A stretch of 64,000 nucleotides of DNA from a virus (taxonomy: Duplodnaviria > Caudoviricetes), in the IMG/VR virus record IMGVR_UViG_3300046490_000039, positions 33,903-97,902 of that record; one strand, 5' to 3'. Below, piece after piece: positions 2,351 through 49,509 of this stretch. The notes beneath the pieces were generated by a model that was given only the letters and a program-made list of their open reading frames with translations, ran no database searches and was not told the origin of the DNA. The translations under genes were made by a program, and so were the position numbers. Numbering within the stretch: position 1 is the first letter of the stretch; every line of letters begins with the position of its first letter.

Positions 2351-2559
2351 AGCCTATCGACATCGCAGACGATCTGCGCCCGCTGATCGACCACATCAAC
2401 CGGGTCAACGGGTCCAACCTCGTGCTCACCGTGGCCGACAACGAGGTCCTCGTTGAGGAGCACGACGTACCGCTCGTGATCATCGAGAACGTGCACGACT
2501 CGATCGAGGCCCACACGGCCGTCTACAAGTCGCTCCACCTCTGGGGGCTGACGGTCTAG
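2347..2559 (+). CDS. hypothetical protein
   Basis: ATGA overlap; begins MKPIDIADD. Confidence 0.6.
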   Translation: MKPIDIADDLRPLIDHINRVNGSNLVLTVADNEVLVEEHDVPLVIIENVHDSIEAHTAVYKSLHLWGLTV

Positions 2560-2564
2560 GATCT

Positions 2565-2657
2565 CCAGGAAAGTTGCGTGCCGCAGTCTTGTGCAAGCAC
2601 GGCCAGCCCGTGAGCGAGAGTGGAAGCTGTGAACCTCTCGGCGCAACTTTCTTGGAA
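2565..2657. ncRNA. candidate small structured RNA or large hairpin element
   Basis: TCCAGGAAAGTTGCG pairs with CGCAACTTTCTTGGA, enclosing GCCG/CGGC and CGAGAG/CTCTCG hairpins. Confidence 0.4.
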
Positions 2658-2685
2658 ATAACCCTCTGACCAGGGGGTTTGTCGC

Positions 2686-2714
2686 TTGACATTCTGATCG
2701 GGAAGGCGCATAAT
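2686..2714 (+). promoter_or_regulatory. sigmaA-type promoter TTGACA-17-CATAAT
   Basis: Near-consensus; shares TTGACATTCTG...ATAATGAAGTT with the promoter at 15680. Confidence 0.8.
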
Positions 2715-2752
2715 GAAGTTGTGCCGCTGGGAAGCGTCACGGAGGACCTTGA

Positions 2753-3025
2753 CAACTGAAGAGCGATGCAGAGCGCACGGCCCCACGAGGTGCCCACGCA
2801 AGTACGACAATGAAGCGCCCTACGGCACATAAGCCCGGAGAGACACTACTCTTCTCTCCACGGTGAGCGGTGTTCAATGAAGGTGGTGGAGTCCGAACGG
2901 TAAGTGGAGCGAAGAGGGAGTCAGCGACGAAGCAAGTAGCGGAGGGTAACCCGGCGTGGCCACAATGGGGGAGAGGAAGCGAAAGCGATCGGCTTGCCGT
3001 GAGTTCTGCACTGCTCTTCAGGTTG
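2753..3025 (+). ncRNA. candidate large structured non-coding RNA
   Basis: No + strand ORF of 60 aa or more; 2753-2781 pairs with 2996-3025; internal hairpins; strong promoter just upstream. Confidence 0.55.
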
Positions 3026-3051
3026 ACTATGTGACACCCCTCTGCTAGTCT
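3023..3051 (+). promoter_or_regulatory. promoter TTGACT-17-TAGTCT for rIIA
   Basis: Consensus spacing upstream of 3089. Confidence 0.6.
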
Positions 3052-3088
3052 GATCTCGTACCGCCGACCGAAAGGCCCACCACCCACC

Positions 3089-4954
3089 ATGATCATCACC
3101 GAGAAGGTCTCCCCCAAGATCAACACCATTGAGGGCGAGAGCCAAGTGTTCCGTATCGCCACGAACGCCAAGGCGTTCCGTGTGCTGGTCGACGGCATTT
3201 ACTCGGACAAGATCGGCTCGATCGTCCGAGAGCTGCTGAGCAACGCCTGGGACGCACACGCTCGACGTGGCGACCTGGACCTGCCCTTTGAGGTCCGCCT
3301 CCCCAACGCCCTGAACCCGACCTTCTCGGTCCGTGACTACGGCTGCTCGATGGAGCACGAGTTCGTGCTGCGAAGCTACTCGACCCTGTTTGAGTCGAGC
3401 AAGGGTGACTCCAACACGGAGGTCGGTGCGTTCGGTCTGGGTGCCAAGTCGTTCCTGTCTTACACTGACGCCTGCACCCTGGTGTGCTGGCTCGACGGTG
3501 AGGTCCGCTCGTACTCGATCGCTCTCAACGATGACGCCGTGCCCGAGGTGAAGCTGGTGCACCGTGCACCGAGCGACGAGCCTCAGGGCGTGGAGGTCAC
3601 CTTCGCCGTAGCGCAGGGCGACTTCCAGTTGTTCCGTCGTGCCGCCGAGACCTGCTCCTACGGGTTCGACGTGCCGCCGAACTTCGTCGGCAACGAGATC
3701 ACCCCCCTGACCCCGGTGTTCACCGGCACCGGGTGGCGTGTCTACGACAGCCGGATCTCCAACATCGACTCGCAGGTGATCGTCCGTCAGGGCTGCGCCG
3801 TCTACCCGACGAACCGCTACAACTACAACACGAACCTCCCCCACAACTACGTGGTGGTCGTCGATGCGCCAATCGGCACCATCGGCGTGACCGCCAGCCG
3901 TGAGGCGCTCGCTCTCAGCCCCGAGCAGGGCGACCAGCTCCGCTACCGAGTGACGGCCGCCGTCCTGGAGCTGAACGGGCAGGTGCAGGAACAGTACCGT
4001 GCGCTCACCACCCCGATCGCCAAGGCCCGCTTCGCCTACGCCAACAGCTCGCTGCTCGGCCGTGGCGACTTCCCGACCTGGGTGAAGCTTCCGTTCTCGG
4101 TCAACAAGTGGGACGCCGGAGCGCTGGCACCGTACGACGTGTTCAACGTCTCGTACCTCGACAAGATCCTGGTCATCCACGATGACGGCACCCCGATCAA
4201 GCGCCGGACGCTTCGTCTCCGCTCGCTCGTGAAGCAGGGGCGCAAGAGCGTGTACCTGGTCACCAGCTCGGCTGAAGTGCAGAAGATCCGGACCCTACTC
4301 GACCTGAGCGCTGGCCAGGTCGTCAAGATCGAAGCCATCCCCGACGTGCACGTGAACCGCAGTGGCGGTGGCACGGCCGCACCGAAGAAGGTCGTCACGA
4401 ACGACGTGGTGTGGGCCAACAGTAATCGCCAGGCAGCGTGGGCCGGAGAGGTCCTCACCTGGAACCGCAGGACCGAGCACGTCGGCCGCTTCTACGGGGC
4501 TTCGCTGGGCTGGACCAACAACGTGATCCACGAGGCGTCGAACGGCAAGCCGATCCTGTACCTGACCGTGAACGAGATGACCGCCGCACTCAAGGCCGGT
4601 CGGATCACCGAGGACATGCGCCTCGACAACGTGATCAAGCGGGCGCTCGGTGCCGCCAAGATGGAGGACACGCTCTACTCCAACTTGGTCCACACGATGA
4701 TCGGCAACCGGACCTATCAGCAGTTCGTCCGAGACGAGATGGTGAAGCGGTCGGGCGTCTCCCTGAAGCAGGAATCGCTCCCGGCAGCCGAACTCTTCGG
4801 CCGGTTCTTTCCCGAGCGCAGCCACGCCATCAACAAGCGGGCCGAGGACACGGTGCAGAAGTTGGCCGGTCAGTTCCCGCTTCTCTTCGGCTACGACCGC
4901 AACGCCGCCGAGGCCTACATCAAGATGTGCGATAAGACTGGACAGAAGGTCTAG
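3089..4954 (+). CDS. rIIA: rIIA-like protein (GHKL/HSP90-like ATPase N-terminal domain)
   Basis: IYSDKIGSIVRELLSNAWDAH, VRDYG, SSK...VGAFGLGAKS; followed by an rIIB-like gene. Confidence 0.88.
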   Translation: MIITEKVSPKINTIEGESQVFRIATNAKAFRVLVDGIYSDKIGSIVRELLSNAWDAHARRGDLDLPFEVRLPNALNPTFSVRDYGCSMEHEFVLRSYSTLFESSKGDSNTEVGAFGLGAKSFLSYTDACTLVCWLDGEVRSYSIALNDDAVPEVKLVHRAPSDEPQGVEVTFAVAQGDFQLFRRAAETCSYGFDVPPNFVGNEITPLTPVFTGTGWRVYDSRISNIDSQVIVRQGCAVYPTNRYNYNTNLPHNYVVVVDAPIGTIGVTASREALALSPEQGDQLRYRVTAAVLELNGQVQEQYRALTTPIAKARFAYANSSLLGRGDFPTWVKLPFSVNKWDAGALAPYDVFNVSYLDKILVIHDDGTPIKRRTLRLRSLVKQGRKSVYLVTSSAEVQKIRTLLDLSAGQVVKIEAIPDVHVNRSGGGTAAPKKVVTNDVVWANSNRQAAWAGEVLTWNRRTEHVGRFYGASLGWTNNVIHEASNGKPILYLTVNEMTAALKAGRITEDMRLDNVIKRALGAAKMEDTLYSNLVHTMIGNRTYQQFVRDEMVKRSGVSLKQESLPAAELFGRFFPERSHAINKRAEDTVQKLAGQFPLLFGYDRNAAEAYIKMCDKTGQKV

Positions 4955-48212: not shown

Positions 48213-48286
48213 TGGAGGCGGAGACGAGAATCGAACTCGCATCGAAGACTTATGAGGACTCCAGGTTACCGTTACCCTACCCCGCT
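48213..48286 (-). tRNA. tRNA-Met(CAU), initiator-like 1:72 mismatch
   Basis: Cloverleaf, CTCATAA anticodon loop, TTCGATT T-loop, CCA end. Confidence 0.85.
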
Positions 48287-48361
48287 GGTGGTTACCGAAG
48301 GTGCCGCCCCCTCGACCTTCCGGGTTTCAACCGGACGCTCTACTGCCTGAGCTAGGTAACC
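48286..48361 (-). tRNA. tRNA-Phe(GAA)
   Basis: GGTTACC/GGTAACC acceptor, TTGAAAC loop, atypical T-loop GGCGGCA, CCA end. Confidence 0.85.
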
Positions 48362-49038: not shown

Positions 49039-49081
49039 GTCATCAGTCTAGTGGGGGTCCACCGTCCCGGACAATCACAAG

Positions 49082-49464
49082 TGGAGCTGGGGGGGTGACG
49101 CTCCCCCCGTCCAATCCTACCGTTTGGGGCTATCTACGTGAACTAGTCGCTCTCTCGGCTGCGACCGCCGCACTGCGTTTCCGGGACGACTACCTTGACC
49201 GGAGTAAGGGTTCTGAGGAAGTCCGTTCCTCGTCGGCCGCTATTGGGTTAGCACGGGTAGCGGACCCGTGGAGTCTCAGACGAGAACCAAGGTCGAAGCC
49301 ACGAGGGCTTCGTACTCGGTGTCGAGGGCCGCCATTGCGACGACGATCTCGGCCTCGGTAACGATGTCAGTTTCGGCATCTTTGGGTTGCACAGGGATAC
49401 ATGCCCCGTACCGCACGTTCACGCCAGCGTACCTCTCCGCAGACTGTCGAATCTACTCAGCCCC
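49082..49464 (-). ncRNA. ssrA: tmRNA
   Basis: 5' GGGGCTGA...ATTCGAC; 3' GAC...CAGCTCCA with G3-U; tag ORF 49377-49276 AETDIVTEAEIVVAMAALDTEYEALVASTLVLV*. Confidence 0.9.
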
Positions 49465-49509
49465 GTATTGGTACTTTACATCTCTCGGTTGTCAATGAGC
49501 TTGGGATTC

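What the first reader, a model, noticed from the sequence alone, without database searches (positions are those of the whole stretch)
2686..3025. Unidentified ~270-nt structured RNA with its own strong promoter and a processing stalk
Seen: this gap has no + strand ORF of 60 aa or more and follows a TTGACA-17-CATAAT promoter. CAACTGAAGAGCGATGCAGAGCGCACGGC (2753-2781) pairs with GCCGTGAGTTCTGCACTGCTCTTCAGGTTG (2996-3025). Inside are CCCCA/TGGGG, GTGCC/GGCAC, GGAGAGA/TCTCTCC, a GC-GAAA-GC tetraloop, and crossing complements (CCACGC/GCGTGG, CACTAC/GTGGTG) that suggest pseudoknots. The leader TTGACAACTGA matches TTGACAACCGA in the tmRNA/tRNA leader, which also opens a closing stalk. I cannot assign it to tRNA, RNase P, SRP or a known ribozyme. 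Inference: a processed, stable phage ncRNA that may be a new class.
Basis: partly seen in the sequence, partly recalled or inferred. Interest (0 to 1): 0.8.

Follow-up and report, generated by a model that had tools for sequence, protein, structure and literature searches.

The report
New self-pairing RNA family in actinophages
The gap upstream of rIIA encodes a folded RNA of about 270 bases from a large phage RNA family that no database lists, also present in about 200 sequenced mycobacteriophages, with a hairpin loop built to pair with a second copy of itself; its function is unknown.

Summary
A near-consensus promoter (2686-2714) is followed by a 26-bp closing stalk (2756-2781 with 2996-3021) that encloses 214 nt, and no + strand ORF reaches 60 aa. 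No Rfam family matches, even at E-values up to 10.

The element is not an orphan. I collected about 45 distinct homologues from uncultivated actinophage-like contigs. A further copy is shared by about 200 cluster C1 mycobacteriophages (Bxz1 type), where it is unannotated or covered by a hypothetical ORF.

Four helices covary strongly. G.U pairs outnumber A.C mismatches 55 to 14, which puts the RNA on the promoter strand.

The terminal loop carries an eight-base self-complementary word (2956-2963). At least seven different words occur at that position across the family. Nearly all are self-complementary, and one is so only through G.U pairs. I infer a kissing-loop homodimer.

In five loci the RNA lies directly upstream of tRNA or tmRNA genes on the same strand. 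The start of the stalk resembles a leader motif of an actinobacterial rRNA operon.

Expression, processing and function could not be tested. The scan had noted this same stretch once before, not other DNA. Best reading: a new family of stable, self-associating phage RNAs.

The parts
2663..2683 (+). Short G+C-rich hairpin with a T-rich tail just before the promoter. It probably ends the upstream operon.
   Evidence: Read from the sequence. Conserved in L005 and L006. The strict terminator scan did not call it.
2686..2714 (+). Promoter of the RNA: -35 hexamer 2686-2691, 17-nt spacer, -10 hexamer 2709-2714. The start is predicted near 2720-2722.
   Evidence: 11 of 12 consensus matches. It is one of four copies of the same promoter block in this phage; the other three precede protein genes. 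The start site is inferred.
2749..2763 (+). Leader motif at the base of the stalk, resembling a motif in an actinobacterial rRNA-operon leader (BoxA-like reading).
   Evidence: Present at the start of P1 in about half of the family members. It also lies before the window's tmRNA-like gene. A similar motif lies 190 nt upstream of 16S rRNA in an actinobacterial MAG. Binding of Nus factors is inferred, not tested.
2753..2781 (+). P1, 5' strand of the closing stalk.
   Evidence: Inverted repeat. Conserved, with one compensatory change, in L005 and L006. Every family member has a stalk here, and the stalk sequences are unrelated between members.
2786..2794 (+). Conserved 5' junction motif. Four positions are invariant or nearly so across 16 members.
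   Evidence: Alignment A3. Its pairing partner is unresolved.
2814..2819 (+). P4, 5' strand. It is followed by the core strand 2820-2825, which in this copy is the shorter variant of the family's most conserved block.
   Evidence: P4 shows changes on both sides at 7 of 7 pairs across 27 members. In the window, 2816-2819 pair with 2882-2885.
2837..2859 (+). P5, the variable hairpin: 2837-2843 pairs with 2853-2859.
   Evidence: Position and pairing match family helix P5, which shows changes on both sides at 6 of 6 pairs. Its length varies from about 10 nt to over 130 nt between members.
2875..2887 (+). Second conserved core strand (2875-2881), followed by the 3' strand of P4 (2882-2887).
2907..2913 (+). 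Invariant purine-rich motif, probably presented in a loop.
   Evidence: Invariant columns in A3 and present in all members listed. Its local structure differs between subgroups and is unresolved.
2939..2949 (+). P7 5' strand (2939-2940, weak in this copy) and the 5' strand of an internal loop resembling loop E of bacterial 5S rRNA (2941-2949).
   Evidence: P7 covaries at 3 of 3 pairs. The loop-E resemblance comes from my own knowledge of the 5S motif and was not tested.
2950..2969 (+). P8 hairpin: 2950-2953 pairs with 2966-2969 and closes a 12-nt loop (2954-2965).
   Evidence: At two pairs of P8, C-G and G-C alternate 20/15 and 21/15 among 36 members.
2956..2963 (+). Eight-base self-complementary word in the P8 loop, the inferred kissing-loop dimerisation site.
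   Evidence: 98.6% of cells are self-paired across 36 members, and three of four positions change on both sides. Seven self-complementary words occur at this position. L013 and L202 differ at 7 of 269 positions, and four of those are the centre of this word, which stays self-complementary. The self-duplex energy is -14.5 kcal/mol.
2970..2986 (+). 3' strand of the loop-E-like internal loop (2970-2978), then either the P7 3' strand (2979-2980) or a small GNRA-capped hairpin (2979-2986).
   Evidence: The two readings exclude each other in this copy and I could not decide between them.
2996..3025 (+). P1, 3' strand of the closing stalk.
3023..3051 (+). Second promoter-like site serving rIIA. Its -35 overlaps the end of the stalk, and its -10 is of the relaxed type common in this phage.
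   Evidence: Read from the sequence. Conserved in L005. In L006 it is duplicated on both sides of an inserted 45-aa ORF. The strict scan does not call it.

Best explanation
I read its biogenesis as follows. Host RNA polymerase transcribes it early from one of the phage's four near-identical strong promoters. The transcript opens with an rRNA-operon-like leader motif, which may make the polymerase resistant to Rho. The 5' and 3' flanks pair into a long stalk, as they do around rRNA, and a double-strand-specific RNase probably cuts there to release a stable RNA with paired ends. The mature RNA has a conserved core bracketed by helix P4, a variable hairpin P5, and an arm made of P7, a loop-E-like internal loop and P8. 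The P8 loop exposes an eight-base self-complementary word, so two copies should join loop to loop into a homodimer. I expect the dimer to act in trans, most likely by binding a host or phage factor of translation or RNA metabolism, because relatives place the gene in the same transcription unit as tRNA and tmRNA genes. Shown here: family membership, the helices, the RNA strand, and self-complementarity of the loop. Inferred: transcription start, antitermination, processing, dimerisation in vivo, and the target.
For: Homologues lie at the same place upstream of rIIA in L005 and L006. Further homologues come from viral, metagenome and genome collections, and nhmmer confirms them at E-values from 1e-57 down to about 1e-5. 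About 200 cluster C1 mycobacteriophage records carry a copy.

Covariation in P4 and P5: 13 of 13 pairs change on both sides. 89% of cells are paired, against 57% in shuffles and about 40% when the partners are slid, and 0 of 500 shuffles reach the observed score. Covariation in P7, P8 and the loop word: 90.6% paired against 67.6%, again 0 of 500. P1 stalks exist in most members with unrelated sequences.

G.U pairs outnumber A.C mismatches 55 to 14, which fits only the promoter strand. One loop word is self-complementary only through G.U pairs, in three independent members. L013 and L202 swapped the four central bases of the word, and none of their other three differences is a matching change elsewhere.

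Promoter-like sites lie upstream of three of the four copies scanned, and none of the four has a terminator after the RNA. The RNA lies upstream of tRNA or tmRNA genes on the same strand in L026, L175, L189, L197 and L199. A motif like the leader lies upstream of 16S rRNA in an actinobacterial genome.
Against: A discrete stable transcript is therefore unproven. In many members an ORF starts only 10-50 nt after the RNA, which fits a 5' leader as well as an excised RNA. The window copy is a variant subtype in which the family's most conserved core block is shortened, so results from the main type transfer to it only by homology. The junction between P1 and the core is unresolved, and automatic consensus folding of the whole RNA failed. 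The leader-motif comparison rests on a single rRNA operon, and the motif's count in the window is at chance level. No partner protein is conserved next to the RNA.
Confidence: 0.6

Rival explanations
1. It is a cis-acting 5' cassette, not a trans-acting RNA. In this reading a portable unit of promoter, leader motif and folded RNA modifies the polymerase that transcribes it (processive antitermination, as with lambda nut, HK022 put or EAR elements), or it stabilises the downstream message. Whatever lies downstream (rIIA/rIIB, tRNA arrays, tmRNA, assorted ORFs) is then expressed efficiently.
For: The RNA always sits directly after a promoter-like site and on the same strand as the next genes. 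None of the four copies scanned has a terminator after it. ORFs begin 10-50 nt downstream in many loci, and these ORFs are unrelated to one another, as expected for a portable cassette. The leader motif resembles one from an rRNA operon.
Against: Known antitermination RNAs are small, and a 12-nt leader motif is enough for the rRNA-type mechanism. A 220-450 nt conserved fold with a closing stalk and a covarying self-complementary loop is hard to explain by a purely cis function. In the window, rIIA has its own promoter-like site after the stalk.
Confidence: 0.2
2. It is a highly diverged member of a known stable RNA class (RNase P RNA, 6S/Ms1-like polymerase-binding RNA, Y RNA, or a 5S-like ribosomal mimic) that current covariance models cannot recognise.
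For: It has a closing stem formed by the two ends. It has an internal loop resembling loop E of 5S rRNA (my reading). It is linked to tRNA and tmRNA genes. Bxz1-type phages do encode a Ro/TROVE protein.
Against: No Rfam hit appears at E-values up to 10 on short inputs with lax filters, for three different family members. The TROVE gene is absent from the window's own genome and from four of five other carrier genomes, and in the fifth it lies about 100 kb away. The fold is branched and is not the 6S rod. I could find no pairing equivalent to RNase P helix P4.
Confidence: 0.1
3. It is a DNA-level element: a miniature inverted-repeat transposable element, or a protein-binding palindrome cluster whose terminal inverted repeats mimic a stalk.
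For: It has 26-nt terminal inverted repeats. It contains an internal perfect palindrome. It is absent from more distant rIIA loci, where protein genes fill the space.
Against: Each genome has a single copy. Internal helices keep pairing through compensatory changes. G.U pairs exceed A.C mismatches four to one on one strand only. One 'palindrome' is self-complementary only as RNA. A promoter-like site lies upstream of three of the four copies scanned.
Confidence: 0.03
4. It encodes a small protein. Candidates are the 54-aa ORF at 2870-3034, or the ORF annotated as gp66 in Bxz1.
For: Short ORFs exist. Annotators called ORFs over this region in many mycobacteriophage records.
Against: Insertions and deletions between close relatives are not multiples of three. 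The ORFs are not conserved between family members. The pattern of conservation follows base pairing, not codons. Gene callers left the homologous gaps in L005 and L006 empty.
Confidence: 0.02

Closest known systems
ROOL and GOLLD RNAs (large 'ornate' RNAs of phages and prophages)
   Same: They are phage-encoded, often next to tRNA genes, highly structured, of unknown function, and assemble into homo-oligomers through loop-loop contacts. The preprint 10.1101/2024.12.08.627333, listed, reports such assemblies; the tRNA linkage is from my own knowledge.
   Different: No sequence or model similarity was found; the Rfam models for both are in the library searched. This RNA is much smaller: 212-296 nt from stalk to stalk in 16 members, and over 400 nt in the Bxz1 type. 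It occurs in phages of Actinobacteria. Only one self-complementary interface was identified, which predicts a dimer and not a cage.
Stable RNAs 'species 1' and 'species 2' of the phage T4 tRNA region (own knowledge)
   Same: They are phage-encoded stable RNAs of unknown function that are co-transcribed with tRNAs and cut out of a precursor.
   Different: The T4 RNAs are shorter, are not known to self-associate, and have no detectable similarity to this family.
Bacterial rRNA operon leader with BoxA and an RNase III processing stalk
   Same: A leader motif sits at the start of a long helix formed by the sequences flanking the mature RNA. A similar motif lies upstream of 16S rRNA in an actinobacterial genome.
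   Different: The product is not rRNA. Nus-factor binding and RNase III cleavage are untested. Only about half of the family carries the motif.
HIV-1 dimerisation initiation site and similar kissing-loop dimers
   Same: A hairpin loop presents a self-complementary word flanked by purines. Natural variants switch between different self-complementary words.
   Different: The word here has eight bases, not six. The context is unrelated: a DNA phage transcript, not a retroviral genome.
phi29 packaging RNA (pRNA)
   Same: It is a phage RNA that multimerises by intermolecular loop-loop pairing (PMC4201828, listed).
   Different: pRNA loops pair with a different loop on the neighbouring molecule and so build a ring. 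Here one loop pairs with itself. pRNA belongs to small protein-primed podoviruses, and there is no similarity in sequence or fold.

Membership tests
Any Rfam 15 family | Covariance-model score at or above the family's gathering threshold | tested here: not met
   The whole window at gathering threshold gives only two tRNAs elsewhere. Searches at E-values up to 10 on 651 nt of the window, up to 1 on six homologous loci, and up to 10 on 361 nt of L204 give only noise hits far below threshold.
tRNA / tmRNA | Cloverleaf or tRNA-like domain detected by ARAGORN or Rfam | tested here: not met
   Nothing is called in 2500-3150.
Bacterial Y RNA (YrlA type) | A Ro/TROVE protein gene in the same genome, usually nearby | tested here: not met
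   TROVE is absent from the window's genome and from four of five other carrier genomes. In the Bxz1-type genome it lies about 100 kb from the RNA.
Bacterial Y RNA (YrlA type) | A tRNA-like domain and a match to the Rfam model | tested here: not met
6S RNA / Ms1-like RNA | A long, mostly double-stranded rod with a central open bubble; a match to the Rfam 6S models | tested here: not met
   The covariation-supported fold is branched (P4, P5, P7 and P8 inside P1). No model hit. RNA polymerase binding is not testable here.
RNase P RNA | Conserved regions CR-I to CR-V with the long-range helix P4; a model match | tested here: not met
   No hit to any RNase P model. By inspection I found no complementary strand for a P4-like helix.
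ROOL / GOLLD class of self-assembling phage RNAs (functional kind, not a homology family) | Encoded by phages or prophages | tested here: met
   All carriers are viral contigs or phage genomes. Only one of 185,579 species genomes scanned held a true copy, and that copy is identical to a viral contig.
ROOL / GOLLD class of self-assembling phage RNAs (functional kind, not a homology family) | Frequent position next to tRNA genes | tested here: met
   Five of 35 loci scanned have tRNA or tmRNA genes directly downstream on the same strand. This is not so in the window itself.
ROOL / GOLLD class of self-assembling phage RNAs (functional kind, not a homology family) | Homo-oligomerisation through intermolecular loop contacts | tested here: inconclusive
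   A self-complementary loop word is maintained by covariation, which predicts a dimer.
ROOL / GOLLD class of self-assembling phage RNAs (functional kind, not a homology family) | Sequence or model homology to ROOL or GOLLD; size of about 580-800 nt | tested here: not met
   No Rfam hit. Stalk-to-stalk length is 212-296 nt in 16 members.
rRNA-type leader and processing stalk | A BoxA-like motif in the leader and a long helix formed by the 5' and 3' flanks | tested here: met
   The motif lies at 2749-2763 and in about half of the members. A like motif lies upstream of 16S rRNA in L221. The stalk is documented. The comparison rests on a single rRNA operon.
rRNA-type leader and processing stalk | Nus-factor loading and RNase III cleavage | not testable with these tools
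   This needs in vivo end mapping and binding assays.

The most novel reading that the evidence does not exclude
This is a new functional class of phage RNA: an RNA made like rRNA (strong early promoter, antitermination-type leader, processing stalk) that forms a specific homodimer through a loop word each phage lineage can re-code. The dimer would act in trans on the host's translation or RNA-surveillance machinery, for example as a decoy or scaffold that uses its 5S-like loop-E module and conserved core. Re-coding of the loop word would keep co-infecting relatives from forming mixed dimers.
Probability: 0.3. Interest if true: 0.88.

Novelty: new variant of a known kind. Interest (0 to 1): 0.76.

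Why it matters
Few large structured RNA families remain undescribed, and each one found so far has opened new biology. This one has no Rfam entry, and I found no paper on it in seven full-text searches.

It is present in about 200 fully sequenced cluster C1 mycobacteriophages that grow on the laboratory strain Mycobacterium smegmatis mc2 155. Its expression, dimerisation and knockout phenotype can therefore be tested at once.

The covarying self-complementary loop is an unusually clean natural case of selection for RNA-RNA self-association. That ties it to the recent finding that phage-linked ornate RNAs assemble into multimers.

The work also corrects annotation. ORFs called over this region, such as gp66 of Bxz1, are probably not genes.

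The rRNA-like leader and stalk suggest how phages of Actinobacteria produce stable RNAs such as this one and their tmRNAs.

Tried and rejected
- Searching phage genomes with the window's 531-nt gap by BLAST found nothing. Back-translated rIIA patterns also found nothing in viral contigs. Homologues came from the rIIA protein search plus contig look-ups, and then from short conserved RNA words.
- The hits of one stalk-derived pattern were all chance matches, apart from weak partial nhmmer scores. One viral scan was wasted on a pattern I mis-specified.
- More distant rIIA relatives (P0004, P0008) have protein genes where the RNA would sit, so the RNA is not tied to rIIA.
- Automatic consensus folding of full-length MAFFT alignments failed outside the conserved anchors. 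I therefore tested helices on anchored sub-alignments. The junction between P1 and the core, the helix around the purine-rich motif, and any pseudoknots remain unresolved.
- The Y RNA idea was rejected on the absence of TROVE.
- There is no conserved neighbouring protein. Downstream ORFs are unrelated to one another, and only one has a weak Pfam hit.
- I looked for an intramolecular partner of the loop word. None covaries with it, and the L013/L202 pair shows no second compensating change.
That step was left out. The 16S-23S spacer in L222 had no clear copy of the motif.
- Seven literature searches found no description of this RNA.

Full report
**Observation.** The window is part of a 97.9-kb high-G+C virus record. 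Between a 116-aa ORF ending at 2559 and rIIA (3089-4954) lies a 529-nt gap in which no + strand ORF reaches 60 aa. The consensus scan finds one promoter-like site, at 2686-2714, with 11 of 12 matches and a 17-nt spacer, against 0.1 sites expected. The repeat finder reports arms 2756-2781 and 2996-3021, which are 26 nt long, 85% complementary and 214 nt apart. Folding energy alone is unremarkable: z = -2.1 on the + strand and -3.2 on the - strand. Rfam gives nothing here at the gathering threshold or at E-values up to 10, and ARAGORN gives nothing. Whether they mean anything had to come from relatives.

**Relatives.** BLAST of the gap against cultured phages found nothing. The rIIA protein has full-length relatives in metagenome assemblies. 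The two closest, at 64-65% identity, carry a similar gap upstream of rIIA (L005, L006). The three gaps align, with the promoter, the stalk and several inner blocks conserved. Relatives at about 50% identity have protein genes in that position.

An 18-base conserved inner word then recovered four more homologues from viral contigs. It also recovered about 15 from metagenomes and one from 185,579 species genomes, the last being identical to a viral contig. These shared a second, longer conserved block. Scanning viral contigs for that block gave 31 further loci, and nhmmer matched all of them at E-values of 2e-4 or better. Most lie on contigs of 35-160 kb. Two of these are Bxz1-type mycobacteriophage genomes. 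BLAST with them shows the element in 203 cluster C1 records, between gp65 and gp67 of Bxz1. There it is either unannotated or overlapped by the hypothetical gene gp66. Rfam has no match for these copies either.

**Structure.** Full-length automatic folding failed because the variable parts misalign. I therefore tested helices on sub-alignments anchored on invariant blocks.

In 27 sequences, helix P4 brackets the conserved core and P5 is the variable hairpin inside it. All 13 of their pairs change on both sides. 89% of cells are paired, against 57% in shuffles and 35-43% when the partners are slid, and 0 of 500 shuffles reach the observed score.

In 36 sequences, P7 and P8 behave the same way. 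At two pairs of P8, C-G and G-C alternate about 20 to 15. Between P7 and P8 lies a symmetric purine-rich internal loop that I read as a loop-E-type motif. That reading is from my own knowledge and was not tested.

A closing stalk P1 is found in most members. Its sequences are unrelated between members, and its duplex energy has a median z of -3.3 against shuffled partners. Over all tested pairs, G.U occurs 55 times and A.C 14 times, so the RNA is read from the promoter strand.

The window copy, together with L170, L175, L160 and L023, belongs to a subtype in which the main conserved core block is shortened. Its P4 (2816-2819/2882-2885), P5 (2837-2843/2853-2859) and P8 (2950-2953/2966-2969) are in place.

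**The loop.** The P8 loop holds an eight-base word, at 2956-2963 in the window, that is its own reverse complement. Treated as four pairs, it is 98.6% paired across 36 sequences, and three of the four positions change on both sides. Seven different eight-base words occur at this position. All seven are self-complementary, and one is so only if G.U pairs count, in three independent members. A few members carry six-base self-complementary words instead.

L013 and L202 differ at only 7 of 269 positions. Four of those are the centre of this word, which stays self-complementary. None of the other three differences, two neighbouring bases far upstream and one single base, is a matching change elsewhere. 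The partner of the loop must therefore be another copy of the same loop. The window's word has a self-duplex energy of -14.5 kcal/mol. I conclude that the RNA is selected to form a loop-loop homodimer. This is an inference from sequence.

**Making the RNA.** The promoter block is one of four near-identical copies in this phage, and the other three are followed by ribosome-binding sites and start codons. This is therefore an ordinary strong promoter of the phage, probably early. The scan also finds promoter-like sites upstream of the Bxz1-type copy and of L166, but not of L184. None of the four copies scanned has an intrinsic terminator after the RNA.

In about half of the members, P1 starts with a conserved leader motif. 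The same motif precedes the window's tmRNA-like gene. A close match lies 190 nt upstream of 16S rRNA in an actinobacterial MAG. Together with the long stalk, this is the layout of an rRNA operon, with an antitermination-type leader and a processing helix. It rests on one rRNA operon. The count of the motif in the window is at chance level, and a wider test could not be run.

After the stalk, the window has a second, weaker promoter-like site (3023-3051) for rIIA. It is conserved in L005, and in L006 it is duplicated around an inserted small ORF.

**Context and function.** In L026, L175, L189, L197 and L199 the RNA lies directly upstream of tRNA or tmRNA genes on the same strand; L175 has an array of 23 tRNAs. 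Elsewhere unrelated ORFs follow, often within 10-50 nt. No protein gene is a constant neighbour. A Ro/TROVE gene is present only in the Bxz1 type, far from the RNA.

The best-supported picture is a stable RNA excised at its stalk that dimerises and acts in trans, probably on translation or RNA metabolism. In kind it resembles the tRNA-linked, self-assembling ROOL and GOLLD RNAs and the unexplained stable RNAs of the T4 tRNA region, without being related to them. The main rival is a cis-acting promoter-proximal cassette that provides antitermination or message stabilisation. The tight spacing to downstream ORFs favours that rival, but it does not explain the dimerisation loop. The DNA-element and small-protein readings are contradicted by the strand-specific wobble pairs, the single copy per genome and indels that break the reading frame.

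**Limits.** No expression data could be examined. The function is unknown. The junction region and any tertiary contacts are unresolved. The window copy is a variant subtype.

Noticed in passing
window 49075-49463, - strand: A tmRNA-like gene that both ARAGORN and Rfam miss, even at E-values up to 1. Its ends look like tmRNA ends. It aligns block by block with the tmRNA that both programs call in L026, and it carries a similar, unusually long tag reading frame of about 30 codons. The same leader motif as at the RNA stalk precedes it (49485-49495).
   Followed up: partly
window 2561-2659, + strand: A second conserved structured stretch upstream of the RNA's promoter. 18-nt arms (2561-2578 and 2642-2659) enclose 63 nt. 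It is conserved in L005 but mostly absent from L006. Its function is unknown; it may be the 3' end of the upstream operon.
   Followed up: no
G000 contig positions about 25310, 26009 and 31540 (loci L002-L004) and window 2682-2732: Four copies of one promoter block share an identical extended -10 region. Three of them are followed by ribosome-binding sites and start codons. This is probably the phage's set of strong early promoters.
   Followed up: partly
L006 2726-2975: In this relative, a 45-aa ORF with its own copy of the rIIA promoter-like site is inserted between the RNA and rIIA, so the promoter-like site is duplicated on both sides of the insert.
   Followed up: no
L217 (Bxz1, NC_004687) 4297-4686: The annotated gene gp66 overlaps roughly the last 200 nt of the Bxz1 copy of the RNA. 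Many sister genomes annotate one to three hypothetical ORFs here and others annotate none. These ORF calls are probably artefacts.
   Followed up: partly
window 48213-48361, - strand: Rfam calls two adjacent tRNA genes, but ARAGORN calls only one of them (tRNA-Met). The second has an atypical T arm.
   Followed up: no
L005 577-810 and L006 348-575; the window ORF 552-779 is probably the equivalent: The early region upstream of the RNA encodes a small protein with a precomputed Acb2/Tad1-hairpin Pfam hit (a family of sponges for anti-defence signalling molecules). MazG-like, ClpP-like and PP2C-like genes lie alongside it. I did not check this for the window's own ORF.
   Followed up: no
L160 1102-2712 and L208 1313-2953, - strand: Two family members share a protein of about 540 aa with no Pfam match (42% identity), located 350-410 nt downstream of the RNA. 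It is the only related pair among the 20 neighbouring proteins compared.
   Followed up: no
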